Below, in pieces: positions 16,566-56,542 of a stretch of 64,000 nt of DNA. The notes beneath the pieces are model-generated. The model did no database searches. It had not been told where the DNA came from and saw only the letters and a program-made list of their open reading frames with translations. Origin of the DNA: Trypanosoma brucei (taxonomy: Eukaryota); contig CP000067.1 of assembly GCA_000002445.1 (NCBI GenBank), positions 1 to 64,000 of the forward strand. The letters run 5' to 3'. The first letter of the stretch is position 1. Every line of letters begins with the position of its first letter. The translations under genes were made by a program, and so were the position numbers.

Positions 16566-18595
16566 TAATATTACGGAGCGCTGCTTACGCACGCAGCTTA
16601 TATAATGTCACATGCGTTGTGATTTGTAGAGGGGAGTGGGCCACCAGAAATTGGGCCATTTAATGTCAATAAGTTTTTACCGCTTGTTGGAGCCGTAATT
16701 CCCCGCACTTAACCTTTTCGAACCGAGGAGTTGGTAAAAGACGGCCAATCAACGGTATTGTCGACACCGTGGCCATCAGTACGGGATTTTACATACGGTA
16801 ACGAAGCGTGGGCATATGTTTTTCTTTAAACGTCATTTTTTAAATTTTTCTGTACATTGTTGCTGCCACTTCTATGAAGTATGGCCAGAATGTCAGAGTA
16901 GTGCATTTGTGTGCAAAACGAAGAAAATAATACTCCCCTTGTTTTTCTTTCCCTCTTGGGTTGTATGAAAAGAGGGGGCTCCTGTTTGTAGGATGACAAG
17001 AGCTGTTTTGTTTCTTTCCTCAAAAAAAATTACATGCTCCATAGTTGCTCCAATATTCCCATCCCTTCATTGGAAAATGACCCGACGGCTCCGTCCATGT
17101 GAGTGAAGCGGTGTCCCTGATATTTGCCCTGATGCTTTTTCTTTTTTCCACCGTGAAACCTGCACTGCACTGCACTTGCGTTCCCTCATCCCCTCTTACA
17201 GTTATCCGTTTCACTTCCCCTGTTGAGGAATGCGTATTTCCAACCGCGCGAGATATCAAACAGTAAATCTGTCGGACAAACAAAAGGCTAAGAAATTCGT
17301 CACATAAACTTATGAGCTTTCACCACTGAGGCACGCACGCTCACCAACACCAACAAAGTCAAGCAAAAGGCGCTGTATATTAATACTCAATGGCGCCATA
17401 ATGTTCCCTTTCGTGTTCCCTTTTCCTTTTTCCTTCCGTTGGGGTTACACAACACTTGTGGGAACCCGCTTCACTTCCTCCTTTTCCAATTATGAAGGTA
17501 ACTGTGTTTTGTTTGCCACACTTCCGCTTGTTATTTCTCCAACTGGTTTCACTCCCAGAAGTCGCGTGTACACCACTTGTGGAGGAAATATTACATTAGG
17601 CAAAACCAACTATGAAAAAAATGGCAATACATTCCAAAATATTCCCTCATCATTGCAGAACTCATGAAAGGAATCATGGTTACTGCCGCCAGGTTAAGCA
17701 AAGACCGAAAGGCTTTTGAAATGTGTTTTCGAATCGAATGCATCACTGGTATTTCTTTAACATGCAAACACAACACAAATCACGGCATGCACAAACACGC
17801 ATTCCGGGCTTCTTATAGAGATATTTCAATACCTGAAAAAGGGACCGGGACGCAAAGCTTGGGAATGGAATTTCCCCGCCCGTTACGCTGATTATCTAAG
17901 ACATTCAATCAACACATTTCCGCCTGTCCACAGTTAATCGGAAACCGTGGTGCCCATATGTCTCCCTAATTACTGTTGTTCCTTCAGTTTTCACAGTAGA
18001 TGTTTCAATTGGTTTCTGCGGCCGAGGTAAATAAAGCGCATGTGTCATATCCGGGAGGTGTTTCCATGTGTCTTCGCTTTCCGTTTTGTCACTGCGTTTG
18101 GGCTCACGCAATGACATTAATTGAAATTTCAGGCCAGTACCATAGATGGGTGGCTCGTGGAGAGAATGAAGATTGGGATTATTCTAACAATTTTGTGGTT
18201 GCGTGTGTCGTGCTTTTGGAAAATATTGCAACCAATGAAAGGGAAGGCAAGTGTCACCTTACTTTCCATGCTGCGACATCAATGCATAAGAATTATATGC
18301 TAGTTGCTCTGCAAGGGAAGGTCGTGAAGGCGAAGGTTAGCTTCCGGTTTAGGGAAGTGCAAAGACTTCCTGATACTACTGTCAGAAACTACTGTTGTTG
18401 CGTGCTTCAGGCACTGGGTCAGTAATTCATAAACACAACAACGAGAATAAAATTAATCCCTTGTGGCTGCTAAGCGTGTAAGCAACTGAAAATAATAAAC
18501 AGTATATTTTTGCCACACTTTATTGATTTCTATATATATACAAAACAACCTCATTACATTTATCATTTCTTTTGTGCCCAAAGACTGCTGAATGA

Positions 18596-34906: not shown

Positions 34907-36946
34907 CTATGCATTGTTACCACCTCTATTGTTAACTCCATTGTTATTGTTACCTCTTACTTGCAATTCAACGTATAGTGCAGTAATGTGGTTACTAAGA
35001 GAAACTGAGAATTGACGCACTTTCTCTCTCCAAAATCTTTCCTCAACCTTATTATTTTGTCCTTCACCTTCGATTGTCCCCTCACAACATTGTGGCTTCG
35101 TAATTTTTTCACTGTCAACCCTTTGGACATATATTATTTCCCATACCATATCATTGGAAAAATTGTCCCAATGTTTGAAGTAACTTCGCAAATACTTCTT
35201 CATCTTAAATAACCCACTGGTGCTGCAGTATTGTTTATCGGAAATTGTGAATTGTAGTCCCACAAAAGTCTTCTGGTTCTCAACAAAAAAAAACGCATCA
35301 ACAACTGGGAAATTTCCTGATTGCGGCTTGCACAAAATCATGTATTGAATTTCAGTTCCAGCTACAATTGGAACATCCTCAGGAACCACAATCGAAGGAC
35401 CAATGAGTCTTGGTTCTTGCAGCACCTGCAGCACACTTTGTGGAATTTGATCCTCAGAAAGTGAGAGGCCCCGTAACTCCTTTGCCAGCTCAATTAGTGC
35501 ATCCTCATGTGACAATACTTCAATGCCACTCTGCTTGAAACGATAAGCAGCAAGGGTACGGTTAGACAGCAGTTCAGATACTAAAGCAGACTTTTCCTGT
35601 ATAAAAGGTTTCAGTCGATCTGAAATAGCTTCCCCCGTGCAAGATGAAAGTGGCTTGCAGCGATACGTATCACACAGGAGAAAATCCTCTTCCTTCACTC
35701 GAACAACCATCACCAACTTGTGTGATGCTTCATGTGTTTCCCAAAAGGCTCGGTTTCGAATAACGGAACGAAAATACTCAGTATCTCCACGTTCAAGTTT
35801 CAAAATAGTATTTTGCATTGCTTGAGCACGCTTTTCGTACGAACGTAAATCAACAATGTGACAAAGCAGTGGACCAACGATACGAATGCGAGCTTGAATT
35901 TCTTGCCATTCTCTTTCAATTTTCTCTTTCGCATCTGAAGGACTCCACTTGTAAGCAGGAGCAATTTTCCCCCACCTCGATATGTGTATGGCTTCCAAAT
36001 CCTTCAATGTGTCACAGTTTATGTAAATATGTGTGGCGCCGTTTTGCTTGGACCATTCATGGAATTGTCTGGCGTCTGGAAAACTCAAAGCAATACCGGA
36101 AAAATCAACAGGTGGTTTCACTGGAGCATGATGGTCCTTGTCCACGACGAATATAAGGTATCCCTTGATATCCTCTGCGCCACATGAATCTCTGACTATA
36201 TGGTCAATATATGTTGAAGCTTGCTCATAATTACTGTAAAACGTAACATATCCTGCTCGACCGCCTTTGGGTTTATGAAACACATACGCCTTACCCCTCA
36301 CAACGTATATGATAATCTGAAGTTGACTCGATTCATAATGCAGTAGTTTGTATAACAGAAAGGGTGCTGTGGAAAACGATTTACCAATACCAGGTGTACC
36401 AATAAGAACATGAAACATCGGGTTGACAGTCACTTCACCCATAAGCCACTTGTTAAGCCGTTCCTCAACCTTATGCCACACCCTCAGTGTTTCCCTGCGG
36501 ATATAAACATCACTTTTAAAAACATACTCCACACCCTTCTTGTGATTGATATCATAATCTTTTTCTTGTGGTTGGAAAGACGTGTATGGCCAACCCACTT
36601 GAGATGTGAGCACAGCAATCTCCAAGTTACCGTGACGAGGAAGAGGTTCGTTCATAGTTTCCAGAGTGTGACTGACATCAACCTCCTCCTTCGTCCACAT
36701 GCGCGGTGGCCTTCCATCGAACACTTTCATTCCAAGTGGCTCTTCATTATAACCCGACATTACATAGCTCCACGTCGCATTATAAATGTAATCGTATAAT
36801 TTCTCTTCGAGAGACTTGCCCTTTCCGGTTTCTGATGGGTTCTCGTTTTCTCGGCTGGCTTGTCTCTTCATTGGGCGGTACGCACCATTCAACCATCCAT
36901 TTAAAATATTCCGAGTATCTCCTACACTACCGCCGTTCTGATTCAT
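34907..36946 (-). CDS. RHS: RHS (retrotransposon hot spot) protein, apparently intact (679 aa); type B N-terminus (MNQNGGS...) joined to a core close to that of the 1682..4715 copy
   Basis: Uninterrupted ORF with the P-loop GTPGIGKSFS followed by an intact, uninserted hot-spot 12-mer (tgtataacag at 36346..36355). The conserved C-terminus ...HITALYVELQVRGNNNNGVNNRGGNNA is shared with the 1682.. copy. Confidence 0.85.
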   Translation of the reverse strand: MNQNGGSVGDTRNILNGWLNGAYRPMKRQASRENENPSETGKGKSLEEKLYDYIYNATWSYVMSGYNEEPLGMKVFDGRPPRMWTKEEVDVSHTLETMNEPLPRHGNLEIAVLTSQVGWPYTSFQPQEKDYDINHKKGVEYVFKSDVYIRRETLRVWHKVEERLNKWLMGEVTVNPMFHVLIGTPGIGKSFSTAPFLLYKLLHYESSQLQIIIYVVRGKAYVFHKPKGGRAGYVTFYSNYEQASTYIDHIVRDSCGAEDIKGYLIFVVDKDHHAPVKPPVDFSGIALSFPDARQFHEWSKQNGATHIYINCDTLKDLEAIHISRWGKIAPAYKWSPSDAKEKIEREWQEIQARIRIVGPLLCHIVDLRSYEKRAQAMQNTILKLERGDTEYFRSVIRNRAFWETHEASHKLVMVVRVKEEDFLLCDTYRCKPLSSCTGEAISDRLKPFIQEKSALVSELLSNRTLAAYRFKQSGIEVLSHEDALIELAKELRGLSLSEDQIPQSVLQVLQEPRLIGPSIVVPEDVPIVAGTEIQYMILCKPQSGNFPVVDAFFFVENQKTFVGLQFTISDKQYCSTSGLFKMKKYLRSYFKHWDNFSNDMVWEIIYVQRVDSEKITKPQCCEGTIEGEGQNNKVEERFWREKVRQFSVSLSNHITALYVELQVRGNNNNGVNNRGGNNA

Positions 36947-37390
36947 TTCACTGTCCGAATAATAGCCTTAATTGAGTGTGTTGTGTTATTTCCTTTCTTT
37001 GTAACATAAATTAAAAAAAGAGATTAAAAATAGGGGAATATAAAAAGATACACTTCTAAACCAAATTACAATCAATGAATATTAGGAATTAATATGGAAG
37101 ATGAAAACTATTTATTGAAATTAGGATTCAATACAAATCTTATCATGTGTTGGGGTGTCACAGCAACTTAAGCACAAATAAGGTATGACAGTATGAATAA
37201 ACATTTCTGTTGGGAGTAAAACTCAAACAACAATTCCCAGTTACTGCACACAATCATTTCAGAAAAAATAATATACTTACATATATATGGGTATGGAAAA
37301 GCAAAAAAAATAAATAAATGTGGCATTGCCATGAAAAACAGCATATAATAGCTTTACTGATAAGCTATGCAAAACGTAGAATACTCGGTT
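36947..37390. repeat. Conserved RHS 5' flank, type B; almost identical copy at 51464..51905 and a more diverged copy at 42103..42520
   Basis: Direct reading: cactgtccgaataata.ccttaattgagtgtgttgtgttatttcctttctttgtaacataaattaaaaaaagagattaaaaataggggaatataaaaagatacacttctaaaccaaattacaatcaatgaatattaggaattaatatgg... appears in both copies. Confidence 0.85.
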
Positions 37391-38300: not shown

Positions 38301-40556
38301 AACACAAACACAAACAAATAAACAACCAAACATTTTTAAATGTTGCTGTGAAACGGAAATTTAATCACGGAAAATTGTGGGGCGCACACGTAATGGGCAC
38401 CATGAATGCCTCTTTGAATATTCCTCAATGGATTTTCACCAGCATCATCAACTTACTTTTTGTGTAAAAAAATAATAGAAACAAGACAGAACAGAAAAAA
38501 GAAATAAAGGTACAAATGCATTAATAAACCCAACTCCTCAGCAGGAAATCAAGAACAGGAAGTCACGAAAAGCGTATGGCACATATGATTTTCACCTCTC
38601 AGTTACTTAAGGTGGATCGCATGATTTACCCACCTTCTAAGAACACACCCTCCGAGAGGCCCGATTAAAAGAAAAAAAAACGCTATGACGGTTGAAAAGA
38701 CGTTTTTCATAAACCTTCACTTTATACGTGAGGATGCATAAATAAACAGTGATAACGATGAGAATGCTAACGGAAACAATGACGAACCGTGAGGATTCTA
38801 GAAAAAAAACACATACTTTTACATTAAGGAAACTTAATAAACAACAAAATATAAATATTCCCTACACAGAGGTATAGGGGGTGTTCGCCAACTTTGCAAC
38901 GTTGGCCAAAAAGTATTTAAATGTATCGATCATTCGTGTAGTCAATCAAATAAGAAGTAACATGTACTACACGCACAAAAGCACACTTATAAAGCCTACA
39001 AACCCACTTGCCCCCTTTTAGAGAATACCACTCTCTCGTCAGTGATAAGAGAGGTGATATTAAAAGTATTCCCTTTATAATTATTTCTGGTTCCTCAATT
39101 CGTTGCAACATAACATAACATGCAAAGATGTCGCATCAGGCAGCGGGGCCACCAGCAATAGCGTTTGGTTCATCCTGGGTGATCTCCTTAACAATATCCT
39201 TTTCCATCTTCACTTGAAACTGGTTGATTCTATTCCACAACTCTGTAGTATAATCGCCTCTGCCCCCAACTGGTTCGCACTTCTGCCTCTCCTCGATTGG
39301 CTTGCTGTCACTGTACTGTATGTAAATCAGCTCCCATTTCAAGTTTATTGCGAGCTCATCCCATTCACCAAACAATTGTTTCATTGCCTTGATAAACTTA
39401 TCTACCTTCGTTCGTGTCGTGTGATGCGTTGGTGCCACTGTCGTCTGGAGCAGAACAATTGTTGTTGTAATGATCGCTCTTCCTTCTGTATCAACAGCTG
39501 GCTCAGTTACAAAGAAAAAGGCGTCCACAACGGGGAAATTTCCCTGTGCAGGTCGGTAGAAGCACCCGACCTCGATGTCTTGGCCTGTCGTTTCGGGGTA
39601 AATATGACGAAGTGAAGTTGGAACACGTCCCACGGCATTACCACTTGCCAGAACGGATACATTTGAATCCATTTCTTCTCCAACGCGAGGGAGATACCGC
39701 AGGTGCGTCACAATCGTCTGCACAACATTTCCCATCGTGAAGGCATATACGCCCACATTTTCAAATTCATCAGCGGCCTGCTCTTTTTTCCCACGAAAAC
39801 CCTTTCGAAGGTAATTGTCTCGCATACATGCTGTGTCCGCCCACACTCTCAATTTCTGCTCAATATCAATGGAAACAGCTCTGTTTCTGCATTCTTCTCC
39901 ATTCTCAGTTACAACCCGGACCAATTTAGCCAACCTGTATGTAGTCCCGTCCTCGCGCCATTCAACTTGACCATTCAGCACCTGCATATAGTAACCATCA
40001 TCGCCTCTACTGATTTCTGCCAGTGCCTCATTTATTTCTCTAACGCGGCCCTTGTAGCGTTCGTCACCTTCCAGTACGTGGCGGGCAGTGGGCCCACCTT
40101 CTTAATCCATCCTTATATTTTCTGCCATTCATTCTCAAGGTTTATGATGTGAGCTTCGGTGATTTTACTTTCCTCCAACTTCGACAGCCGCCTCCACGCA
40201 ACCGCAGCCTTCAGTTCCACCTCTTCATAGCAATTGATGCAAAGGAACTCGCAACCCCGTGGTTCCTTCCACTCTTTGTAGTTATTTGGATCTGGAGATG
40301 TCAACACAATTACGGGCCACGTTTCCGGCAAGTCTGCGGGTATGGGTTGGTGCCTGTCTTTCGAAAAGTCGTATATAATATAACCAAGAAGCCATTCGTC
40401 AGCCAAGGCATTGACAGCATCCACTCCATCATTTTCTTTTTCATAGAATACAACCCTTCCCGGATGATCGTTTGTCGCCATGAAGAAAATATATGCCCTA
40501 CCCTTCACAAAATAAGCGATAATCCGCAACAGCTCCGAATCGTAATGCAGCAACCC

Positions 40557-40567
40557 TTGGAGCAGGA
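40557..40567. repeat. Target-site duplication TTGGAGCAGGA (left copy) of RIME #2
   Basis: The identical 11-mer is at 41078..41088. Confidence 0.8.
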
Positions 40568-41077
40568 TTTTTTTTTAGAATTTTCTTCGTGCCTTCGTGA
40601 GAGTTTCCCCCCACTGGCGCGGCCATCAGCCATCACCGTAGAGCCCTGAGATGCTATCGGTCTGGCGACTGTGGCAGAGTCTCCCTTTTTTATTCATCCT
40701 AACACACCCTCTATAATTTTTGTTGTATTTCCGCATATGAACGGAATACAGCAGATGGGGCGAGAAGCCTCCCACCCTGGACTCTCCCAAAGATGCCAAT
40801 TGGCAATCCTTTTTTGGAGGTCCACATCACCGGACAGCAGCATCTTAGTGCGGATGATACTGCTGATGGCACGCTGGCACGTGCCCAGGGACCGACAAAT
40901 GAAAAACGGTGTCCCAGCAAGACGCTGCTGATCCCTGTGCTGTATGATGCCGTAGCCGGAGCACAGCAGTGTTCCCCATGAAAGGAACGCTGCTGGCTCT
41001 TGGCTTCCCCCGATGATACGGGGTACTGGACCCTGGCACCACGTTGAGGTGGCCGGCATCGCCAGGGTTGGAGCAGG
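40568..41077 (-). mobile_element. RIME: RIME retroposon, full length (body about 501 bp plus 9 nt poly(A) at 40568..40576)
   Basis: About 97% identical to RIME #1 along its whole length. It ends with the same CCCTGGCGATGCCGGCCACCTCAACGTGG 5' 79-mer (reverse complement at 41049..41077). It is flanked by an 11 bp direct repeat. Confidence 0.85.
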
Positions 41078-41088
41078 AACGAGCCAAC
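41078..41088. repeat. Target-site duplication TTGGAGCAGGA (right copy) of RIME #2
   Basis: Identical to 40557..40567. Confidence 0.8.
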
Positions 41089-43158
41089 ACCAACTGATTT
41101 CCCAATACCTGCAGTGCCGACGAGGACGCAAGGAATCTGTTTTTCGATCAGCCCTGACTCCAGCCACAAATCCAGCCTCTGCTTCACAAGATACCACACT
41201 CTCATTACCTCTCGACGAATGTACACATCCAGGTCAAACACGTAGTCTCCTGGTTTTTCCGCATCCTCTTGAATTACACTTCGCGGAATGCGGAAACGAT
41301 GATATGGCCAACCCTTCTGTGAGGTGAGCACAGCAATCTCTAAATTACCACGTCAAGGCAGTGGGTCGCACAAATCGTAAGGCGTTTTACTGACATTCAC
41401 CTCCTCTTCTGTCCACAGCTCAGGCTCGCCGTCACAATTACCCACCACCTTCAGGCCAAGAGGTAAATCATTGTGACCCGACTCCACATAACCCCACGTC
41501 GCGCTATAAATGGAGTCGTATACTCCTTTCAGTTCGGCACCACCAGCTGTTTGAGCAGCTCCTCCCAATGCTTCATCGAGTGCATTATTCAACATGTTAG
41601 TGACAATAATTCAAGTCTGCTCTCCATTTCTCAGTCCACGAATATTCACCTGTAACCTGGCCTTTACTTCCTCATTTGCTTGTTTCCAGCGCACGAGATT
41701 CAATATTCCCTCATTCTCATAAAAACCATAGACGCTGACAAAACGTTTGTACACTTGATACTCTGTTGTCGCGAATATTCGATTGAGCGCATTAACGTCA
41801 TTAATATACTCTTCACATCGTTGTACAAACACAGATATTGATACATTATTTTCTTCTTTCACATTGTATCTTGTGCCAAAATTACTTCTCAAAAAATCAT
41901 TCAACATCACATTTCCAGGATGTGGCAGACCATTCAGCAAAACTGCTTCAATGCAGCTGAAAAGTCTCCATTGTGGTTGGTTGTTATTCTCCACTCGTTG
42001 CTGCACTGCTGGAGGTTCCGCATCGTTACGCGCAGCCTCCTCACGCTCTCGTCTCCTTCCCTCAATGTCACCCCTTCCTTCAATAGGAACCTGTTGATTC
42101 ATTTCACTCTCTGAATAATAATCTTAACTGAGTGCGTTGTGTTATTTCCTTTCTTTGTAATATAAATAAAGAATTAAGATGAGGGAATTTAAAATGGACA
42201 CACTTCTAAACCAAATCAAATATACAATCAATGAATATTAGGAATTAATATGGCAGGTGGAAACTATTTATTGAAATTAGGATTCAATACAAATCTTATC
42301 ATGTGTTGGGGCGCCACAGCAACTTAAGCACAGATAAGGTATGACAGTATGAATAAACATTTCTGTTGAGAGGAAAACTCAAACAACAATTCCCAGTTAC
42401 TTCACACCATCATTCCAAAAAAAATAATATACTTATATATATGTATGTATGGAAAAGCAAAAAATAAATAAATGTGGCATTGCCATGAAAAAAAAACAGT
42501 TTCACACGTGTGGTCCAAAAGCTGCATCAGCCAATACGATATCTTGACAGCTTGTCATGCAGTCTTGTCTCAAGAAGAAAATAAAACATTCATCTCTGCT
42601 TTCCGTTAATTGATAAATGAGATCCCATGCTGTGTTAACTCACGTCTCCATTCAAATAGTTGACTCAACGTTGTGACGAAGCAGTGACCAAAAACAATCC
42701 AAATGCAATTCCAAATTTCTTCATATTACGCTTTCAGTTTTATTACACATTTCCCCAACCATTCCGAGTACTAACAGGAATAATTTGGTTCTATCCTAAT
42801 GCATGTGCTTTCTACAGCTCTTTCATTTTGTTATGATCCGCACAAAAATTATATATGTGGTTGTTGATTCGTCCTGTCAATCAAAGTAACAATCATAATA
42901 ATTAATTTTCCCCTTTTCTTCATTTTTTCTATTAGCACATGTGCACCTTGGTGAGATCACTTTCACTCATTTGCACTGATTGGTCAACACCATTTAGTTC
43001 GTCATTCAACACACTCCCTTACATGTCCTCTTCTCACCATTTATAACCCACACGAGCAGCATCAAATATAAATTGTGAAGAGGTATGAGATCACAAGAAC
43101 TCGCTCTCATTGAGAAGGTTGGATGCGTCATATATATATATAATCATGTAATCCCTTT

Positions 43159-44933
43159 TCATTTCAACAATACGCAAACCTCAACTGCGGAATCGACTTT
43201 GAATGAGTTGACCTCGTCAGCATGAAACGGAGTCCGCCCAGTGGCATGAACATTAATCTTATCAGTAAACATGTGTTTGAGGTGTTGGTAATAAATGGGG
43301 TCAAAGAAAACATAAGTGCGTATCATCTTCCCCGTTATGCCCGAGTGGAAAATATGCATCATCTCCTTGAAGATAATTGTATCCATGTTGTATCAATTCC
43401 TCATCCAGCTCCTCATCCTTATCGGTACCCAAAGGCATTGCCATCGCCGACTTTTTTCATGAATGCACTCACGCCTTTGAGCTAACAAGTTCCAGCAACT
43501 TTCCATCTGTCATACGGCTCGGGAATCCATGAGAATTTATGATCATATCTGTGCAAATGCCTTTACTCATTGAAGGGCATGTTAATACACCATCAATCAT
43601 GAGACCCACTACTCCCTCAAGCCAGTGCCGTGAGGAAAACTTATTTCAGAGCTCGTGATCGCGAACTTCTCTCGTAGAAACTTTAACTTTATTGTTCTAC
43701 ATTCATTGATATATCCGAGTCACTGGAAGGTGAGAGATGACCACATTTGGTCCACAACAGCAGGCTGAGGGTATTTATTATATTCAAGAAAATTAGGTAT
43801 TGGTTCCTTGAAAGGCACGGGAGTTTATTTGTTTACAAAAATATCAAACTGACGAATAACCGCACCTTTACTACTGGCAATACCATCACTATTAAAGGCA
43901 CTGTGTCTCGCAACATTTCAATCTGTTGGAAGAATTATATCATACTCACCGTTGGGAAGTCTTTCCAGTTCCATCTCATGCTTACAAAAAACAACACACC
44001 ACCCATAGCCACAATTGAGCGAACTGCGGTTGTGTACACCTTTGAGTCTTCAATATTGTAACCTCTATAGCTCATAACGCATACCATCGTATTAATTCCT
44101 GCACCTGATATTTCGTAGTTGCTTAGGTTCATAGCCTTCGTCCAGCAAAGGGATCGTTGAGAGTAAGCACTCAACATAAGTACTGTGTCCATTTCTAATG
44201 TACTGAATATACGCAATGGTTCCAACAGCTTGCTTGCCCATGGCTGACTGTAATGTGTTTTGTGCAAATTGATTGTGATGTGTAAAGGAGAATAATGCTA
44301 GCGACAACTCCAAGTGAGTCTCGTGTACTGCTCAATGTCTCTATGGTGAACTGCTAAAAGATAGTCATTCGCTTCGTCATATAAGTCAATGAATTCCACA
44401 ACAAACCTTCAGCTAAAATATCGTTAATCGATCACTTGCTTGAACTCAAGTTATCCAGATGTTAAGAAATTACAGCGTGTTTCCCATCGCCAACGACAAC
44501 ATACAATCTCACGATCCTTCCGCCAACACAAACAATTTGAACACTATTCTGACGGTCATTTATCACAATAGAAACATGTGGATGCAAGTGGCCTGACCTC
44601 CTCAGGGTTCGTAATACATCCCGACACAAACGGCTCATGTACCGGTAAACGCACATCAGCACTTCATTGGGGAAAACTGTGTAGTATTTAAGAAATTCGT
44701 TGTGGCTGATATAATCTATTTCCTCCACTTCAATATTGTACGCATCCGCGTGTAAAAAAAAACGAATTATCCATGTCGAGTGTTACCTGACTAAGAATAG
44801 CAAAATTATTAACCAAACAGCAACAACTTTCACCCTCTGGGGTATCGCAAGGAGGGACATACACCATTCCCCCATTGACTTGAATAGAGAAATAAGTTCG
44901 CACATGTGGGTCAATACACGAGGTCATGACCAC
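43159..44933 (-). pseudogene. Degenerate fragment of an RNA polymerase second-largest subunit (RPB2/RPA2/RPC2 family) gene, roughly yeast RPB2 residues 640-1030, spread over at least 4 frames
   Basis: Minus-strand ORFs carry universal RPB2 motifs in the correct N-to-C order. 44462..44728 has ...LRTLRRSGHLHPHVSIVINDRQNSVQIVCVGGRIVRLYVVVGDG (cf. [44 protein letters not shown]). 44092..44313 has HNQFAQNTLQSAMGKQAVG (cf. HNQSPRNTYQSAMGKQAMG). 43935..44267 has VCVMSYRGYNIEDS (cf. IACYSGYNQEDS). 43159..43386 has ITGKMIRTYVFFDPIYYQHLKHMFTDKINVHATGRTP (cf. [25 protein letters not shown]). Which polymerase class is not determinable by eye. Confidence 0.6.
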
Positions 44934-46047
44934 TCCACTGCTGCCGTTACATATGATTACTGCATGGTTTTCGTATCAATGTTGATGATGATATGGGATT
45001 TGCTGCTGGAGGCAACCAACAACATAAGTTTAAGGTTCCCACGTGTGGAGAGAGGCCCAACTGCCAACCCTCAACCAGGAGAACAGAAGTGATTATAAGG
45101 AAAGAGAAGACAACATATCATAGCATGTTTACCCACCGACAAATAATTGAAGAAAGAAAGAGAGAGGAAAATGGACACAATCAGGTCACCAGCTGCGTGT
45201 CTGCGAAGAACACCATCAAGAGCTGCTCCATAACTCTAATCATAACTAACATGTATAATATAATTATAACAGCTCGTATATAAAAGAGCACATCCAGTAA
45301 CTGCTTCTAATGTTTGCATATTTCACTCCGTCACAATTTTTCTCCCATGACACCTACTGGAAATACAACTCAGAGGAGTTATAGTTGAGGCATGTTTCCA
45401 ATGCGCCCTCTCTACCACGGATGGCGAAGAAGCAAAAAGTACTATTACATTTTTGTTCCTTTTATCATTGGCCTATAGATTCCTATCTCTACACGGATGT
45501 AAAATTTAAATTGTATAAATGAAAAGAAGATGTGAAGAGTTAGTTTAGTATAATCCAATTCTTTAGTTAGTAACAGCACAAATGAAAACAAAACGTTACA
45601 ATGTTTTCTTACGCCCGTTGATAACATTATATCTGTCTTTCTTTGTGCCCCTTAAGATTACGATGTGGCTTAACTCCAGTTATGCGTTAGCCTATAAAAT
45701 ACTGCACTCCTTCTACTTCCTTCACTACGTTGTCGTCTCGCCACGTTTCCTTGGAACCTTCATTACATTCATACCATGGCGTCCTTGCTGCACCCGAAAA
45801 AAAAAAGCAGCCACACCTCCTTGCCCGCTGTGAGGTTACTGAATATACTTCGGACGTCACTGATTATGTGCACCTCTGTGCTACTCTTGTTTTGACAGCA
45901 GTCCGCTGAACTTGGTTTCCTTTCAGACTGCCGCACCCCAAGCGCTGCCCACTGCTGAGGAAATTGAACCGCATGTATTCACCGTGGTCGTACCTGCATT
46001 TGTTGCGTGTCAAACAACAGCGACTGGCCTTACTCCAGCTATTGGGT

Positions 46048-48337
46048 TCACCTTCGCTTTGCTTTCATCGCTCGCCTCCCCTGTGCCTTTTCTGCCTCCT
46101 GAAGATCTACCATCAGATGAGCATTCATTTCGTCCCCAAACGTTACTTGGAATTGTTCAATCATTTCCCAAAATGTTTGAAGTTGTTTCGCCTTCCTGGC
46201 AGGGATAACTTTGTCGTCGTTCGCCTCACATTTTTGCCAATTGGTAATCACACCGCCATTAACTCCATTCATGTATATCATCTCCCAAGCCATGTTACCC
46301 GAAAACGTGTTCCAGTCCGAAAAATATCCTTTAATTCTCTCCGTGAACGCATTCAACTTTGTCGCAGTGGTGGAGTGACAGTCCGACTTGGTCACGTGTA
46401 AAAGGACAAGTGTCTTTGGTTTTGGCGTTTTTTTCGCTTGCCTTCCAGGTGACATCGTGAAGCGCCCCTCAACGAAAAAAAAGCCATCCACCAAGGGTTC
46501 ATAGGCTGTGGCGGGAGTGTAGAGCACCATGTATTCGCAGCGTTCAATTGGGTTCTGCCTGGCTGCTGGTAAGACTTCCCATCCAGTGAGGCACAACTGC
46601 TGAGGAGTCATGCTACTCAGTATACTTTGTGTTCCCCTCAGCTTCTCAGGCGGATGGAGGTGTCTCAAGTTCTTTGCCATCATCTCGAGAACTCGAGGAT
46701 TGAGCACCGCAAACAACGCATGGCTTTCAAATGAAATGAAAGCGGCACTTCTGTTTCTCATCATGAGCTGGGACTCTGCTACTTTTCGCGCAGTAAAGCC
46801 AAGCACCGCCCAAAGTAGCAAGGTCCTTATGTGCCCGGAAAGCTCTTTGCTGCGATATGAATCTCCGGAAACTCCATTTCCACGCGAACGGACTATCTGT
46901 ACCATCTGGTACGACACCTTTTCAGTTTGCCAGTTCATTGATGACCTAAAAAGATCCTCGCAGCCATTTTTATCATTAGCATCGAGGCCTCTTATTTTTT
47001 TTGCCACCGCCTCCATTCGCCCTCCGTGCCCCACAGCGTCGTAAACGGCACGAGGCACCGGGCCGGCCACTGCAATACGCTGCTTTACAGTTTCCCATTC
47101 GTCCTCAAGATCTCCTTTTAACTTTTCTTTTGCTGTGTTGGATACCTTTTTACCTAATGCTACTGATAAATTCTTCCATGCCACAAATGCCTTCATGTCA
47201 CCCACATCATCGTAGTTTATAATAATATGGCGGCTTCCCATGTCCTTTTCCCACTCCTCATAATGTGCCGTATCCGGGGAAGTGAGGACAGTTATACCCC
47301 AACCCAAATGGCACAGCTCATCAGGCGGTATAAGTAGTTCGTTACCGATGTCGACAATGATGTGACCTCTTTTTTTTCTTATTGTTTTTATGAAGGTAAC
47401 GGCGGAATCGGTGCTTCTGTCTTCCTCAACCCTCCCCTCTTCTCCGGGTTTCTTGTTATGTATTAGGTAAGCGATTTTTCCCACGAAATATGCAACAACA
47501 TCAAGCATTCCTTCATTGAAGTGAAGCAGTGAATGAAGCAAAAATGATCCAAGGCCACATGTTTTACCAATACCAGGTGTACCAATAACAATATGTATCG
47601 GTGGTCTCTGTGCTTTTTCCACCCACCTTCCTTGCAGCCCTCGTTGAATTATATACCACACGCGCATAATTTCACGACGGATGTATACATGTTTAAGTTT
47701 TTCCCCGCACCTCTCAGTGTGGCCCAATGCAAACCTGTTGTATGGCCAACCTTTCTCCGAAGTGAGAACAAAAATCTCCAAACCATCAGGCCTCTCCTCA
47801 ATATCTGCATCGACATTCGTAGGATCAGGAGTTACATCCACCTCCTCCTTCGTCCACATGCGCGGTGGTCTTCCATCAAACACTTTCATTCCAAGTGGCT
47901 CCGCATCATAACCCGACATCACATAACTCCATTTTGCATTATAAATGGAATCGTATAATTTCTCTTTGAGAGACTTGCCCTCTCCGGTTTCTGATGGGTT
48001 CTCGTTTTTCCGCTCTCTTGGCGGCTATCACTGCAGCATCCAACATTCCCCTCGCCACGGGACCAACAAATTCCCTTATTTGCGCTGTTGCCCTCTCTTC
48101 CCATTGCTGTATGTCGCTAATCTCATTACGAGGCAGATAAATAACTGCCCTCAGTAATTGAAACTCCTCAAGCCGCTGTATTCTTCCTAGAATCCTGGCA
48201 TCTAAAATAAATCTTTTGTGATTCTTAACAAGCAAAAACATGGCTACATTCTGTGTGTCATACGTGTTTGAGAAGTATTGATCCAAAAAGTCATGCAGTT
48301 TTATTTCATCCAAACTCGCATAATCTTCCAGCAGCAC
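46048..48337 (-). pseudogene. RHS: Chimeric RHS pseudogene: N-terminally truncated type-A leader, a type-B leader segment, then a type-D core, with a frameshift at the junction
   Basis: ORF 47939..48337 ends ...VGPVARGMLDAAVIAAKRAEKRE (type A, cf. 4120..4160). It then switches frame at about 48000 into NENPSETGEGKSLKEKLYDSIYNAKWSYVMSGYDAEPLG (type-B leader, cf. 51310..51370), and continues as ORF 46048..47922 with P-loop IGTPGIGKTCG. Confidence 0.8.
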
Positions 48338-49435: not shown

Positions 49436-51463
49436 TTACCTTCGGCCCGCAGCAGCCACCGCAAGCATTTTGATAACTATGTTATCCTCATACTGCACAT
49501 GGTACTGCTGCACATTGTTCTTCCAGAATCCCTTCACAAACTGGTGACTGCGGTGCTTTGCCTTACCCTGTGTAATTTCACACTTCTGCTCAGACCTCAT
49601 CGCTGTGGATTCGAAGTGCTGAACGTAAATGATTTCCCAGTGAAACATCTCAGTAATTTCCTCCAACTGCTCAACGGTAGCCTCATTCTGGTGACCCCCT
49701 CCCTCCGCACTTGGCAAGAGGGATTGTAACAAATGAATGAATTCGTCGGTTTTTGTGTCATGTCTGCTGGCAACAGTAAACTGCAACAACACAATAGTTT
49801 TCTTTCCTGTGGTTCCTGAAGCCTGTGCAGCCTCCTTGTCATCAACAATAAAGAATGCATCCGCTACGGGGTAGTTGGGAATGCACGGCACATATAATTC
49901 CACCGGAGCCCCCTCCGACTCAGCCCAGTTGATGTCACCTGGCACTGTGTTTGTTCGACCAACTTTGAGGAGGTCATCCCTTACGTGTTGCAAAATGCTT
50001 TTGCGTGTCCTCATGCGTCTGGCCCTTTCATTTGCTGGAAGTTTCGTTATTAAACTTACGAAGCAAGTTAACACTCTGGGGGAACACAAATATTTAATTG
50101 CATTCTCCTCAAAATAAAGCCCGATGGCAGATGCATTCCGCATCATACCAGTTGTCAGTGCCCACTCCTCAGCAATGCCGGAAAACACTACATTCAAAAT
50201 TCTTTTCTTTATAGATTCAGAATGCGCCACGCAGACATACGTGTCAAAGGAGTTTCCTTCTCGAGCTTTGATACGAACGATCTTCACGAGCTTATGTGAT
50301 GCATCATTGTCCCTCCATTCCCCACAGTTGTCCAGTACCTTAGTATATATTCCGTACTTGTTACCTGCTACGATACTCCCCAATTCCCCGTCCACTGCAG
50401 TAAGCTCCTGTCCATACATTACTTCGTCAAACACATAACGAAGTGAAGGTCCGACACGCTCCACACGGTTCTCATACATGTTCCACTTTTCCCTCAACTC
50501 AACATGCGTGGCTTGAGGAAACAGCTTGAGTCCCATACGTGAGAAGAAAGCCCGCATTTCACTCATTTCCCAGCAGTTAACAACAATAAAAGCGCCTTTA
50601 CGTTGCTTTTGCCAGCTGTCAAAATTTCTCAAATTGGGTGAACTGATCAAAATGCTTCCCCATTTTGGAGCCACATCTGCCGGTGGCTGCTCGCCTTTGT
50701 TGACGAAGTCATAAATAATATAACCACGTGTATTAGATGATATAACCTTCATAAACGTTATAGCCGCTTCTTTACTGTACTCCCTAACTCTGCCAACGCC
50801 ACCATTATCCGATTTTTCAAATATATATGCGGCTACACCACGGAAATACGCAACAACAGGCAACTCTTCCGCATCATAATGCAATAACTTGTAGAGGATA
50901 AAAGAACCCAAATTCTGAGATTTGCCAATCCCAGGATTACCAATGGCAACGTATGATCGTGGTAAATAAAGACATCCCGGTATAACACGCTGGGTACGCC
51001 ATAATTCAATTCCACTCCTTACAACATTCCATACGCGGAGCTCCTCTCTGCGAATGAATATGTCACTGTTACTTCCCCGGGCAAAGCCTGTATATGGCCA
51101 ACCCATTTCTGAGGTAAGAACCAACAGCTCAACTCCTTCCGTGCGTTCCGGCTTCTGTTCAAGAGTTTCCTCAATTTTGGGGACAACATTAAGTTCCTCA
51201 TCTTTCCACATCAAACCTTCATTGGGCATTCCATCAACCAACGTCATTCCCAATGGTTGAGTTCCATCGTCGATAATAATATAACTCCATTTCGCATTAT
51301 AGGTGGAATCGTATAATTTCTCTTCGAGAGACTTGCCCTCTCCGGTTTCTGATGGGTTCTCGTTTTCTCGGCTGGCTTGTCTCTTCATTGGGCGGTACGC
51401 ACCATTCAACCATCCATTTAAAACATTCCGAGTATCTCCCACACTACCGCCGTTCTGATTCAT
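49436..51463 (-). CDS. RHS: RHS protein, apparently intact (675 aa); type B N-terminus with a distinct core
   Basis: Uninterrupted ORF with P-loop IGNPGIGKSQNLGSFILYKLLHYDAEE. Its first 50 aa and about 440 bp upstream are nearly identical to the 34907..36946 copy. Confidence 0.85.
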   Translation of the reverse strand: MNQNGGSVGDTRNVLNGWLNGAYRPMKRQASRENENPSETGEGKSLEEKLYDSTYNAKWSYIIIDDGTQPLGMTLVDGMPNEGLMWKDEELNVVPKIEETLEQKPERTEGVELLVLTSEMGWPYTGFARGSNSDIFIRREELRVWNVVRSGIELWRTQRVIPGCLYLPRSYVAIGNPGIGKSQNLGSFILYKLLHYDAEELPVVAYFRGVAAYIFEKSDNGGVGRVREYSKEAAITFMKVISSNTRGYIIYDFVNKGEQPPADVAPKWGSILISSPNLRNFDSWQKQRKGAFIVVNCWEMSEMRAFFSRMGLKLFPQATHVELREKWNMYENRVERVGPSLRYVFDEVMYGQELTAVDGELGSIVAGNKYGIYTKVLDNCGEWRDNDASHKLVKIVRIKAREGNSFDTYVCVAHSESIKKRILNVVFSGIAEEWALTTGMMRNASAIGLYFEENAIKYLCSPRVLTCFVSLITKLPANERARRMRTRKSILQHVRDDLLKVGRTNTVPGDINWAESEGAPVELYVPCIPNYPVADAFFIVDDKEAAQASGTTGKKTIVLLQFTVASRHDTKTDEFIHLLQSLLPSAEGGGHQNEATVEQLEEITEMFHWEIIYVQHFESTAMRSEQKCEITQGKAKHRSHQFVKGFWKNNVQQYHVQYEDNIVIKMLAVAAAGRR

Positions 51464-51905
51464 TTCACTGTCCGAATAATAATCTTAATTGAGTGTGTTG
51501 TGTTATTTCCTTTCTTTGTAACATAAATTAAAAAAGAGATTAAAAATAGGGGAATATAAAAAGATACACTTCTAAACCAAATTACAATCAATGAATATTA
51601 GGAATTAATATGGAAGATGAAAACTATTTATTGAAATTAGGATTCAATACAAATCTTATCATGTGTTGGGGTGTCACAGCAACTTAAGCACAAATAAGGT
51701 ATGACAGTATGAATAAACATTTCTGTTGGGAGTAAAACTCAAACAACAATTCCCAGTTACTGCACACAATCATTTCAGAAAAAATAATATACTTACATAT
51801 ATATGGGTATGGAAAAGCAAAAAAAATAAATAAATGTGGCATTGCCATGAAAAACAGCATATAATAGCTTTACTGATAAGCTATGCAAAACGTAGAATAC
51901 TCGGT
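51464..51905. repeat. Conserved RHS 5' flank, type B (copy of 36947..37390)
   Basis: Almost base-for-base identical to 36953..37390, through ...gcatataatagctttactgataagctatgcaaaacgtagaatactcggtt. Confidence 0.85.
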
Positions 51906-54844: not shown

Positions 54845-56542
54845 TTAATTCATCATCATATTTCTGATCATCAGCGATAGGGCTTGACATTTGTATGATT
54901 CGACTCCTCCAACATTTCCTTTTACTCTTACAATCTTCACCAACTTGTTCATAACTTCATCGTTCCGCCAGTCAGCCGTGTGTTCAATAATATCATTATA
55001 GCAATATTTATCAGATTTCTTCATAGCTCTCAACGCATCATACACACTTTTCAGATGCCACTCATAACAACCTAAACCAAATATATAACGAGGCAGCGGT
55101 CCAATTAAATTAATGCGTTCCTCCACTATTTTCCACTCATCTTCAATTTCTCTCTTCAATTCGTATCTTCTTCTGTTGGACACCTTTTCTCCTGTATGTA
55201 TTGACAGCTTTTTCCATGCCATAAATGCCTTCATGTCACGCACATCATCGCAGTTCATAATAATTTGGTGGCCTCCCTTATTTGCACTCCACTCATCAAA
55301 ATGGTCACTTTTAGGGAAAGTGAGGAAAGTTACACTCCAAACATCAGAGGGAAGTTGAGTGTATAGTTGCTCCATTGCATACCTTGTGTCCATAACAATG
55401 TGCCCTTTGCTTTCAGATTTCATTTTATTTATGGCAGCAACGGCAGACTCCCAGCGTTCGTATTCATCAACAGTCCCTCTTTCCTCACCCTCTCGGTTGT
55501 ATATCAGGAAGGCAGAATCCTCCAAGAAATATGCAACAACATCAAGCATTCCTTCATTGAAGTGAAGCAGTGAATAAAATAAAAATGATCCAAGGCCACA
55601 TGTTTTACCAATTCCAGACGTGCCAATAATAATATGTATTGGTGGACCCTCAGCTGTTGCTTCCATCCACCATGCTTTCAGACCTCGTTGGATTATATAC
55701 CACACGCGCATAATTTCACGACGGATATATACATGCTTGCAAATTGTCTTGCATCTCTCAGTGTAACCCAATACAAACCTGTTGTATGGCCAACCCTTCT
55801 CCGACGTAAGAACAAAAATCTCCAAACCATTGGATCCTTCCTTTACTCTTGCATCAACATCGGCAGTTTTAGGAGTTATATTCAATTCTGCCTCCGTCCA
55901 TATGCGCTGCGGCCTTCCATCGAATACCTTCATTCCAAGTGGCTCCGCATCATAACCCGACATCACATAACTCCATTTCGCATTGTAAAAAGAATCGTAA
56001 ACATCTCGACAACTTTTGACAGAAACACGCGGCAGAAACCATACTTCTGATTCCGTGACAGCATATTGTACTGCATTCAACCTTCCCCTTGCTACAGGGC
56101 TAATGGAGTTTTTCACCTCTGGAGTTGCACCGTTCACCCAATCGCTGATGGTATAAATTTTTTCCTCTTTAAGGTAGTTTATCCACATTTCTGTTTCAGG
56201 CAGTTTCTCAACAATCCTTTTGTACTCCCTGAACTCATAAAGCCCCTGTATATCCTCAAGAATCTCGGCATCCTTAATATAATCTTCAGGATTCTTAACA
56301 AACGTTTCCATTGACACATTCACTGTGTTATACGTGTTTGAGAAGCATTGATTCAAAAAGTCATGCAGATTCATTTTGGGCAATGTCGCATATTCTTCCA
56401 GCAAAAAATCCCTCACTGTACTGTTCATTTTACAATCAGAAAATCTTTTATATCTCTGCGGCATCTGTGGAGGCTGAGCAGGAGGAGGTGCTACATGTTC
56501 ATCCCGTGGCCTCCTCATGGCTCCTTCAATGTTATTTGGCAC
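54845..56542 (-). CDS. RHS: RHS protein copy, C-terminally truncated (565 aa; stop falls about 250-290 codons before the position where the 46048-type core continues). It is likely a pseudogene or truncated variant.
   Basis: Type-A-like N-terminus MPNNIEGAMRRPRDEHVAPPP..., P-loop IGTSGIGKTCG, and it ends ...LVKIVRVKGNVGGVESYKCQALSLMIRNMMMN* at a TAA. The ancestral upstream ATG (cf. ATGTCAAGAGCAAAT at 4715) reads ATATCAAGAGCCAAT here. Confidence 0.7.
   Translation of the reverse strand: MPNNIEGAMRRPRDEHVAPPPAQPPQMPQRYKRFSDCKMNSTVRDFLLEEYATLPKMNLHDFLNQCFSNTYNTVNVSMETFVKNPEDYIKDAEILEDIQGLYEFREYKRIVEKLPETEMWINYLKEEKIYTISDWVNGATPEVKNSISPVARGRLNAVQYAVTESEVWFLPRVSVKSCRDVYDSFYNAKWSYVMSGYDAEPLGMKVFDGRPQRIWTEAELNITPKTADVDARVKEGSNGLEIFVLTSEKGWPYNRFVLGYTERCKTICKHVYIRREIMRVWYIIQRGLKAWWMEATAEGPPIHIIIGTSGIGKTCGLGSFLFYSLLHFNEGMLDVVAYFLEDSAFLIYNREGEERGTVDEYERWESAVAAINKMKSESKGHIVMDTRYAMEQLYTQLPSDVWSVTFLTFPKSDHFDEWSANKGGHQIIMNCDDVRDMKAFMAWKKLSIHTGEKVSNRRRYELKREIEDEWKIVEERINLIGPLPRYIFGLGCYEWHLKSVYDALRAMKKSDKYCYNDIIEHTADWRNDEVMNKLVKIVRVKGNVGGVESYKCQALSLMIRNMMMN

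What the first reader, a model, noticed from the sequence alone, without database searches (positions are those of the whole stretch)
43159..44933. Relic of an RNA polymerase second-largest-subunit gene embedded in the RHS cluster
Four ordered, collinear but frame-shifted segments carry the universal RPB2 signatures (SAMGKQA, GYN.EDS, DK.HAR..GP, LRTLRR). A housekeeping polymerase subunit pseudogene is unexpected inside an RHS array. It may mark an ancient segmental duplication of a core-chromosome region into the RHS compartment. It could also be a substrate, in principle, for recombinational variation of the functional gene.
Basis: partly seen in the sequence, partly recalled or inferred. 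Interest (0 to 1): 0.65.

Follow-up and report, generated by a model that had tools for sequence, protein, structure and literature searches.

The report
Decayed Pol III subunit gene fragment
This is a dead, heavily mutated copy of part of the trypanosome's own RNA polymerase III second-largest-subunit gene (RPC2, not RPB2), copied with a piece of its neighbouring gene from the edge of another chromosome's core into an RHS gene cluster; it is an ordinary duplicated pseudogene that is useful mainly as a marker of genome rearrangement.

Summary
The minus strand of 43033..44889 carries a collinear relic of an RNA polymerase second-largest-subunit gene, flanked by RHS genes. It is broken by 17 frameshifts and 8 stop codons.

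The parent is RPC2 (Pol III), not RPB2. The relic is sister to T. brucei's own functional RPC2 (100/100 bootstrap; 74% aa, about 87% nt identity). It covers residues 480 to about 1087 of 1129.

A second relic lies directly upstream, at 44906..45230. It holds the upstream non-coding DNA, polypyrimidine tract, ATG and first 39 codons of the WD40 gene that precedes RPC2 at the parent locus. It has the same order, strand and divergence as the RPC2 piece, and 3.55 kb of parent sequence is missing between the two.

So this is a DNA-level segmental duplicate, not a retrocopy. It arose on the T. brucei lineage after the split from T. congolense and has decayed neutrally since.

The parent locus sits at a conserved core edge: a telomere in Leishmania, RHS genes in T. 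cruzi and T. theileri. That plausibly explains how it was captured by an RHS cluster.

A role as a recombination donor is unlikely, because the longest identical run is 36 nt. Interest is low to moderate.

The parts
43033..44889 (-). Relic of RPC2, the RNA polymerase III second-largest subunit. It covers residues 480 to about 1087 of 1129 and carries 17 frameshifts and 8 in-frame stops. It lacks the N-terminal 479 residues and about the last 40.
   Evidence: Frameshift-aware protein-to-DNA alignment to T. brucei RPC2 (P0240) gives 74% aa identity over 603 codons. blastn of L006 11445-13239 against window 44882-43045 gives 83.0% over 1861 columns. The 3' homology ends at about 43033. Pfam finds Rpb2_4 and Rpb2_6.
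44883..44905 (-). 23-nt junction filler (ATGTGCGAACTTATTTCTCTATT on the minus strand) between the two relic pieces. It marks the site where 3,553 bp of parent sequence (L006 7892-11444) is missing.
   Evidence: Direct comparison of the window junction with both parent breakpoints.
44906..45230 (-). Relic of the 5' end of the WD40-repeat gene that lies upstream of RPC2 at the parent locus. It holds 213 nt of upstream non-coding DNA, the former ATG at 45025 and the first 39 codons, with stops.
   Evidence: blastn of L006 7563-7891 against window 45230-44906 gives 82.3% and E=6e-92. The 5' boundary at 45230 is sharp. An earlier sub-threshold tblastn hit of T. theileri WD40 residues 1-30 at 45025-44933 agrees.
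45149..45171 (-). 23-nt polypyrimidine tract, followed by a second at 45097..45110 and a first AG at 45071. It is inherited from the WD40 gene's upstream region and is a potential trans-splice or polyadenylation signal.
   Evidence: Tract scan. It aligns to the parent's tract at L006 7623-7652, with an 8-nt deletion. Use of the signal is inferred, not shown.
43130..43142 (.). (AT)n microsatellite inside the relic. It accounts for a two-codon insertion (MV--GYG becomes MIIYIYD).
   Evidence: Sequence and alignment.
46048..47922 (-). Upstream flanking RHS (pseudo)gene on the same strand as the relic.
   Evidence: Pfam RHSP E=1.7e-56 and RHS_N E=6e-26.
41611..42492 (-). Downstream flanking RHS N-terminal ORF (41611..42102, DUF7578) and its conserved 398-bp 5' flank (42095..42492). 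That flank is the only part of the spacer repeated elsewhere in the window.
   Evidence: Pfam DUF7578 E=6e-21. Self-blastn matches 51456-51854 and 36939-37338 at 89-90%.

Best explanation
The feature is a non-processed (duplicated) pseudogene fragment.

A stretch of at least 5.7 kb was copied as DNA from the edge of the chromosome core that carries the functional locus PHO4-DOT1-WD40-RPC2. It ran from 213 nt upstream of the WD40 gene to near the 3' end of RPC2. It landed in an inter-RHS spacer of a different chromosome's RHS cluster, in the same orientation as the RHS genes. This happened on the T. brucei lineage after its split from T. congolense.

A 3.55-kb internal deletion removed most of WD40 and the first 1.44 kb of RPC2. 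It occurred either at the time of the event or later.

Since then the copy has decayed without selection. About 0.11-0.14 substitutions per site have accumulated, spread almost evenly over codon positions. There is a strong GC-to-AT drift and about 36 small indels. The copy cannot encode any polymerase function.

Its presence in an RHS cluster is most simply explained by where its parent sits (inferred). RPC2 lies at or within two genes of the last conserved gene of its directional cluster. That cluster borders a telomere in Leishmania and RHS or other multigene-family DNA in Trypanosoma. Ectopic recombination or duplication among RHS clusters could therefore drag boundary DNA along.

- Shown: identity, parentage, composite structure, decay and relative timing.
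- Inferred: the capture mechanism, and transcription as a passenger of the RHS polycistron.
For: **Parentage**
- The top database hits are all RPC2.
- PDB phmmer scores are 265/238 bits for RPC2, 173 for RPB2 and about 87 for RPA2.
- The NJ tree places the relic as sister to T. brucei RPC2 at 100/100, and within T. brucei plus T. congolense at 98/100.
- The relic shares 8/10 T. brucei-derived states and 0/13 T. congolense-derived states.

**Separate chromosomes**
- RHS ORFs of the window are exact T. b. brucei TREU927 proteins on a 1,590,432-bp record.
- Functional RPC2 (P0240) is on a 1,064,672-bp record.

**Composite, collinear structure**
- Two blastn pieces of the parent locus L006 keep parental order and strand, at 82.3% and 83.0% identity.
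- Their K2P distances are similar, 0.165 and 0.14.

**Decay**
- 17 frameshifts and 8 stops.
- Differences by codon position are 15.0/10.5/16.5%. Functional T. theileri versus T. cruzi differ by 8/3/59%.
- 174 GC-to-AT changes against 40 AT-to-GC.
- 64 of 247 columns invariant in 14 functional kinetoplastid RPC2 proteins are changed in the relic.

**Parent at a core edge**
- In L. infantum, RPC2 is the last gene, 1.8 kb from TTAGGG repeats.
- RHS sequence lies on the same strand 3.2 kb downstream in T. cruzi, with DGF-1 beyond it, and 5.4 kb downstream in T. theileri at the contig end.
- A trans-sialidase lies downstream in T. rangeli.
- The T. b. gambiense core-only chromosome record starts 4.7 kb beyond RPC2 (PMC2854126).
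Against: - The T. brucei TREU927 chromosome sequences could not be read. I could not measure how close the functional RPC2 is to the RHS cluster of its own chromosome, and I could not check whether other RHS clusters carry copies of the relic.
- The 4.7 kb downstream of RPC2 in T. b. gambiense holds no RHS sequence.
- The 540 bp (42493..43032) and 817 bp (45231..46047) flanking the relic match nothing in the parent locus. The original extent of the transferred segment is therefore unknown.
- The timing of the internal deletion is undetermined. The two pieces could have been joined during a single complex repair event rather than by a later deletion.
Confidence: 0.85

Rival explanations
1. Processed (retroposed) pseudogene: an RPC2 mRNA was reverse-transcribed by ingi/L1Tc-type machinery and inserted in the RHS cluster.
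For: RHS clusters are rich in retroelements (general knowledge; PMC3447711). The copy is 5'-truncated with respect to RPC2.
Against: - The relic includes non-coding DNA upstream of a different gene (WD40), with its polypyrimidine tract. That sequence would not be in a mature RPC2 mRNA.
- The RPC2 3' end, 3'UTR and poly(A) are absent.
- There is no flanking target-site duplication. The only candidate 16-mer (14/16 match) is at chance expectation (own estimate of about 1.8 expected).
Confidence: 0.04
2. The relic derives from RPB2 (Pol II) or RPA2 (Pol I), as implied by the 'RPB2 signatures'.
For: The motifs SAMGKQA, GYNxEDS and LRTLRR are shared by all paralogues.
Against: - RPC2 scores 265/238 bits against 173 for RPB2 and about 87 for RPA2.
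- The relic has 83% nucleotide identity to the T. brucei RPC2 gene.
- It is sister to T. brucei RPC2 at 100/100.
Confidence: 0.01
3. The relic is the remnant of the ancestral in-situ RPC2 locus, and the functional gene moved elsewhere.
For: None specific. The relic sits next to RHS genes, as functional RPC2 does in T. cruzi and T. theileri.
Against: - The PHO4-DOT1-WD40-RPC2 order is conserved around the functional gene in L. infantum, T. cruzi, T. theileri, T. rangeli and T. brucei gambiense. That locus is therefore ancestral.
- None of DOT1, PHO4 or the downstream hypothetical gene is present in the window.
- The relic carries T. brucei-derived residues.
Confidence: 0.02
4. The relic has been co-opted. 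It is transcribed within the RHS polycistron and processed using the inherited WD40 splice signal. It then acts as a regulatory lncRNA or, with antisense transcription, as a source of siRNAs against RPC2 or WD40 mRNA.
For: - It is on the same strand as the surrounding RHS genes.
- It has an inherited 23-nt polypyrimidine tract with a downstream AG.
- Pseudogene-derived small RNAs have been reported in T. brucei (PMC3447711).
Against: - The window holds no inverted or second copy that could form dsRNA.
- The decay pattern is neutral, with no conserved block.
- The AGO1-bound small-RNA survey named only Tb927.5.290 and Tb09.160.3400 as siRNA-producing non-VSG pseudogenes.
- 13-14% divergence with frequent indels leaves few 22-25-nt perfect matches.
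Confidence: 0.05

Closest known systems
T. brucei RPC2, the functional RNA polymerase III second-largest subunit (P0240; CAJ15945.1 / XP_001218757.1). From memory only, its gene ID is Tb927.1.540.
   Same: It is the direct parent. The relic has 74% aa and about 87% nt identity over residues 480-1087, the same domain order (Rpb2 domains 3 end, 4, 5, 6, start of 7), and shares T. brucei-specific residues.
   Different: - The relic lacks residues 1-479 and about the last 40.
- It has 17 frameshifts and 8 stops.
- Active-site-region motifs are destroyed: GDKFSSRHGQKG becomes L*NKFSSRHWLEG, DKMHARATGP becomes DKINVHATGRT, and GEMERD becomes VEMKRD.
- It lies on a different chromosome record.
Duplicated (non-processed) pseudogenes and segmental-duplication fragments in subtelomeric or repeat-rich compartments. 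Examples are the VSG/ESAG islands and segmental insertions described for T. brucei in PMC2854126.
   Same: It was copied at the DNA level, includes non-coding and neighbouring-gene sequence, resides in a recombinogenic multigene-family compartment and decays neutrally.
   Different: The cargo here is part of a single-copy essential housekeeping gene plus its neighbour, rather than a member of a contingency gene family.
RHS pseudogenes of T. brucei. 78 of 118 annotated RHS genes are considered pseudogenes (PMC6393297).
   Same: Same compartment, same strand, and the same kind of disruption by frameshifts and truncations.
   Different: - It is unrelated in sequence to RHS.
- It is single-copy in the window.
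- It is more diverged from its parent (K2P 0.14-0.165) than neighbouring RHS 5' flanks are from each other (K2P 0.07-0.08), so it is not being homogenised.
siRNA-producing pseudogenes of T. brucei (Tb927.5.290 and Tb09.160.3400; PMC3447711).
   Same: All are annotated or annotatable pseudogenes in a genome with active RNAi.
   Different: No evidence of small RNAs from this locus. It has no inverted partner and was not among the loci reported.

Membership tests
RNA polymerase second-largest subunit (Rpb2/beta) superfamily | Ordered Rpb2 domains detectable by profile search | tested here: met
   Pfam finds Rpb2_4 (E=1.6e-12) followed by four collinear pieces of Rpb2_6. The relic aligns to residues 480-1087 of RPC2.
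RNA polymerase second-largest subunit (Rpb2/beta) superfamily | Intact open reading frame with conserved hybrid-binding and active-site motifs, i.e. a functional member | tested here: not met
   There are 17 frameshifts and 8 stops. The GDKFSSRHGQKG, DKMHARATGP and GEMERD motifs are mutated. 26% of kinetoplastid-invariant columns are changed.
RPC2 (Pol III) orthologue group | Scores higher to RPC2 than to RPB2, RPA2 or archaeal Rpo2, and branches within RPC2 | tested here: met
   265/238 bits against 173, about 87 and 178. Sister to T. brucei RPC2 at 100/100.
RPB2 (Pol II) orthologue group | Best match and phylogenetic placement with RPB2 | tested here: not met
   RPB2 scores about 90 bits lower than RPC2. 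All top database hits are RPC2.
Duplicated (non-processed) pseudogene or segmental-duplication fragment | Collinear retention of parent-locus sequence beyond one transcript (intergenic DNA or a neighbouring gene), with similar divergence | tested here: met
   The WD40 upstream region plus 39 codons (82.3%) and the RPC2 piece (83.0%) keep parental order and strand. K2P is 0.165 and 0.14.
Processed (retroposed) pseudogene | Complete 3' end with a poly(A) remnant, flanking target-site duplication, and content limited to one mature mRNA | tested here: not met
   The copy is 3'-truncated with no significant C-terminal tail match and no poly(A). There are no target-site duplications beyond chance. 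It contains sequence upstream of another gene's splice site.
Pseudogene evolving neutrally | Substitutions spread roughly evenly over codon positions, plus accumulation of indels | tested here: met
   Differences are 15.0/10.5/16.5% by codon position, against 8/3/59% between functional orthologues. There are about 36 indel events in 1.8 kb.
Regulatory or siRNA-producing pseudogene | Discrete transcript and/or sense and antisense small RNAs mapping to the locus | not testable with these tools
   No expression data were available. The locus is not among those reported in PMC3447711.

The most novel reading that the evidence does not exclude
The relic is not inert. It carries the WD40 gene's trans-splicing signal and sits sense-oriented in an RHS polycistron, so it could be matured into a stable non-coding RNA. 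With local antisense transcription it could also yield small RNAs that tune expression of the Pol III subunit RPC2 or of the WD40 gene.
Probability: 0.04. Interest if true: 0.5.

Novelty: new member of a known kind. Interest (0 to 1): 0.25.

Why it matters
Its value is as a genomic fossil.

- It shows that DNA from the edge of one chromosome's conserved core was copied into the RHS cluster of another chromosome, on the T. brucei lineage.
- It gives a datable marker for exchange between RHS compartments. K2P distance to the parent is about 0.14-0.165, roughly twice the divergence between neighbouring RHS flanks.
- The RPC2 locus marks a conserved core boundary across trypanosomatids: a telomere in Leishmania, and RHS, DGF-1 or trans-sialidase genes in Trypanosoma. 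This supports the view that RHS and subtelomere-like compartments grow at fixed synteny break points.
- For annotation, the locus should be labelled an RPC2 pseudogene fused to a WD40 5' fragment, not RPB2.

It has no foreseeable consequence for polymerase biology.

Tried and rejected
**Literature**
- The original RHS and chromosome I/II papers could not be opened.
- Full-text searches for an RPC2 or RNA polymerase pseudogene in RHS clusters found nothing relevant.

**Access to T. brucei DNA**
- Exact-protein contig look-ups for window RHS proteins and RHS5a found nothing on record. TREU927 DNA outside the window could not be read.
- T. brucei RPC2 was missing from both homologue searches. It is hidden inside the T. 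theileri 90% cluster and was recovered with the listing of cluster members.
- One search also appears to exclude proteins much longer than the query. That made a 50%-identical bodonid look like the best hit.

**Synteny by protein search**
- tblastn with T. theileri and T. cruzi neighbours found no VPS9-like, DOT1 or downstream hypothetical genes.
- The only trace was a sub-threshold WD40 hit (E=0.07). DNA comparison with the T. brucei locus later showed it to be real.

**Other negative checks**
- Extension of the relic to the RPC2 C-terminus: a collinear 16-residue match at 43012..42965 scores no better than shuffled tails (35-89 of 100 shuffles reach it), so it was rejected as unsupported.
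- Target-site duplications and inverted repeats around the relic: only chance-level short matches.
- Pfam on all six frames of both flanks: nothing.
- tRNA scan of the window: none.
- RHS sequence within 4.7 kb downstream of T. b. gambiense RPC2: none.

Full report
**1. What is in the sequence**

Six-frame translation of 42800..45400 shows minus-strand segments with clear similarity to the second-largest subunit of multisubunit RNA polymerases. They include LRTLRR, SAMGKQA and GYNIEDS, and are interrupted by stops and frame changes.

Pfam confirms RNA_pol_Rpb2_4 (E=1.6e-12) followed by four collinear pieces of RNA_pol_Rpb2_6 (best E=1.6e-16). tblastn with kinetoplastid proteins finds only this one copy in the 64-kb window.

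The surrounding ORFs are RHS genes on the same strand. Pfam finds RHSP and RHS_N on 46048..47922 and 49436..51463, and DUF7578 on 41611..42102. Self-comparison shows that only 42095..42492, a conserved RHS 5' flank, is repeated in the window. 42493..46047 is unique.

**2. Which paralogue**

- A stitched translation finds only RPC2 (Pol III) proteins as best database hits.
- Against PDB sequences it scores 265 and 238 bits with human and yeast RPC2. It scores 173 with RPB2, about 178 with archaeal Rpo2 and about 87 with RPA2.

The relic therefore derives from RPC2, not RPB2.

**3. Source organism and parent gene**

Two RHS ORFs of the window are exact matches to T. brucei brucei TREU927 proteins (XP_844174, XP_844175) on a record of 1,590,432 bp. 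From memory this is chromosome 4.

The T. brucei RPC2 protein was hidden inside the T. theileri 90% cluster. It was recovered as P0240 (CAJ15945.1 / XP_001218757.1), on a record of 1,064,672 bp. From memory this is chromosome 1. DOT1B, whose paralogue lies 2.8 kb upstream of RPC2 in L006, is Tb927.1.570 in the literature. I did not verify that the adjacent DOT1 gene is the B paralogue.

**4. Anatomy and decay**

A frameshift-aware protein-to-DNA alignment that I wrote aligns window 44889..43011 to T. brucei RPC2 residues 480-1090.

| Measure | Value |
|---|---|
| aa identity to T. brucei RPC2 | 74% over 603 codons |
| Frameshifts / in-frame stops | 17 / 8 |
| aa identity to T. congolense, T. 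cruzi, T. rangeli, T. theileri | 68-69% |
| aa identity to Leishmania, Bodo, Phytomonas | 57-60% |

- An NJ tree places the relic as sister to T. brucei RPC2 (100/100), on a very long branch.
- It shares 8 of 10 residues derived on the T. brucei branch and none of 13 derived on the T. congolense branch. The copy was therefore made late on the T. brucei lineage.
- Against the parent DNA (T. b. gambiense locus L006, whose protein is identical to TREU927's), differences are 15.0/10.5/16.5% at codon positions 1/2/3. Between functional T. theileri and T. cruzi genes they are 8/3/59%.
- Changes are biased GC-to-AT, 174 against 40.
- There are about 36 indel events. 31 of them are small insertions in the relic.
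- 64 of 247 columns invariant in 14 functional kinetoplastid RPC2 proteins are altered.

This is the signature of unconstrained decay.

**5. A second relic and the mode of origin**

blastn of the parent locus against the window gives two hits:

| Parent locus (L006) | Window | Identity | Content |
|---|---|---|---|
| 11445-13239 | 44882-43045 | 83.0% | RPC2 |
| 7563-7891 | 45230-44906 | 82.3%, E=6e-92 | 213 nt upstream of the WD40 gene that precedes RPC2, its polypyrimidine tract, its ATG (window 45025) and its first 39 codons |

- Both pieces keep parental order and strand. They are separated in the window by 23 nt of filler, while 3,553 bp of parent sequence is missing.
- Their K2P distances to the parent are similar, 0.165 and 0.14.
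- The 5' boundary at 45230 is sharp. The 3' homology fades at about 43033.
- A collinear match to the extreme C-terminus is not better than shuffled controls.
- There is no poly(A) remnant and no target-site duplication beyond chance.

Non-coding DNA from upstream of a neighbouring gene is included and the RPC2 3' end is absent. The relic is therefore a DNA-level segmental duplicate with an internal deletion, not a retrocopy.

**6. Why an RHS cluster**

The functional locus has the conserved order PHO4-DOT1-WD40-RPC2, with an extra gene between WD40 and RPC2 in some species. This order holds in L. infantum, T. cruzi, T. theileri, T. rangeli and T. b. gambiense.

What lies beyond RPC2 differs between species:
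- In L. infantum, RPC2 is the last gene, 1.8 kb from TTAGGG repeats.
- In T. cruzi, an RHS pseudogene starts 3.2 kb downstream on the same strand, followed by DGF-1.
- In T. theileri, RHS sequence appears 5.4 kb downstream, where the contig ends.
- In T. rangeli, a trans-sialidase follows.
- In T. b. gambiense, the chromosome record starts 4.7 kb beyond RPC2. That record was built from core regions only (PMC2854126).

The parent therefore sits at a conserved core/variable-compartment boundary. I infer that exchange or duplication among RHS clusters carried boundary DNA into this cluster. An RHS5 protein at least 90% identical to the window's occurs on three different chromosome records. The step itself was not observed, and I could not read the TREU927 chromosomes to measure the distance from RPC2 to RHS genes there.

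**7. Function**

- No coding function is possible.
- The relic is co-oriented with the RHS genes and retains the WD40 polypyrimidine tract (45149..45171, AG at 45071). It is probably transcribed as a passenger and might be processed. This is inference.
- The window holds no inverted partner that could give dsRNA.
- A survey of AGO1-bound small RNAs named other loci as the siRNA-producing pseudogenes (PMC3447711).
- As a donor for gene conversion of the functional gene it is a poor substrate. The longest identical run is 36 nt, identity is 86-87%, and there is an indel about every 50 nt. Conversion would also be deleterious.

**8. Verdict**

It is a pseudogene and a segmental duplication of core DNA. 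It is wrong on the paralogue, on 'ancient', and on the recombination role.

It is a new example of a well-known kind, a duplicated pseudogene fragment in a recombinogenic compartment. It may already be annotated in the curated genome, which I could not check. Interest is low to moderate and lies mainly in its use as a marker of RHS-cluster dynamics.

Noticed in passing
window 44906..45230 (-): This is a relic of the 5' end of the WD40-repeat gene that precedes RPC2 at the parent locus: upstream non-coding DNA, polypyrimidine tract, ATG and 39 codons. It lies outside the finding's coordinates and is fused to the RPC2 relic.
   Followed up: yes
L004 (L. infantum), L003 (T. cruzi), L001 (T. theileri), L005 (T. 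rangeli), L006 (T. b. gambiense): Functional RPC2 lies at or within two genes of the last conserved gene of the PHO4-DOT1-WD40-RPC2 cluster in every species examined. Beyond it come telomere repeats (Leishmania), RHS plus DGF-1 (T. cruzi), RHS at a contig end (T. theileri), a trans-sialidase (T. rangeli) or the end of the core assembly (T. b. gambiense).
   Followed up: partly
window 43033..44882 versus L006 11445..13262: The relic shows a marked small-insertion bias relative to its parent: 31 insertions of 1-6 nt against 5 deletions, for a net gain of 32 nt. This is the opposite of the deletion bias usual for pseudogenes. It may partly reflect alignment scoring and microsatellite growth, such as the (AT)n run at 43130..43142.
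   Followed up: no
window 13751..15763 (+): Fragmented ORFs match the periplasmic-binding-protein-like domains of receptor-type adenylate cyclases (Pfam PF25495 at 14278..14832, PF25493 at 15395..15763). This is probably a GRESAG4/ESAG4-like pseudogene and so another non-RHS relic in the cluster.
   Followed up: no
window 18000..18425 (+) and 18596..22941 (+): An intact 141-aa ORF gives a full-length match to DUF1181 (E=1e-83). It is followed by a leucine-rich repeat protein gene split into two adjacent ORFs (519 aa and 918 aa, gap 20156..20184). Both are on the strand opposite to the RHS genes.
   Followed up: no
window 54845..56542 (-) and 60277..61974 (-): Two nearly identical 565-aa RHS ORFs lie 5,432 bp apart. 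Both end at the same residue (...LMIRNMMMN), which suggests a tandem duplication of an RHS copy truncated at the same point. That point may be the retroelement insertion hot spot.
   Followed up: no
window 39136..42102 (-): The RHS gene downstream of the relic is itself broken into at least three ORFs (41611..42102, 40711..41331, 39136..39987), so it is an RHS pseudogene.
   Followed up: no
window 42095..42492, 36939..37338, 51456..51854: A conserved element of about 400 bp lies immediately upstream of three RHS genes. Gapped identity is 89-90% and K2P is 0.07-0.08. That is about half the divergence of the RPC2 relic from its parent, so the RHS flanks were duplicated or homogenised more recently than the relic was formed.
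   Followed up: partly
P0241 (T. b. equiperdum RPC2) versus P0240 and window about 43390: The T. b. equiperdum orthologue is labelled 'RNA polymerase II subunit 2' in its source, an apparent misannotation. It has Q in LIQHGYNY, as the relic does, whereas TREU927 and DAL972 have R. The relic therefore seems to preserve an older or polymorphic T. brucei state.
   Followed up: no
(tool behaviour): The homologue search with a 596-aa query returned no protein longer than about 1,041 aa. T. brucei RPC2 was invisible because it is clustered under T. theileri at 90% identity. Taken at face value, this made the relic look only 50% identical to its nearest relative.
   Followed up: yes
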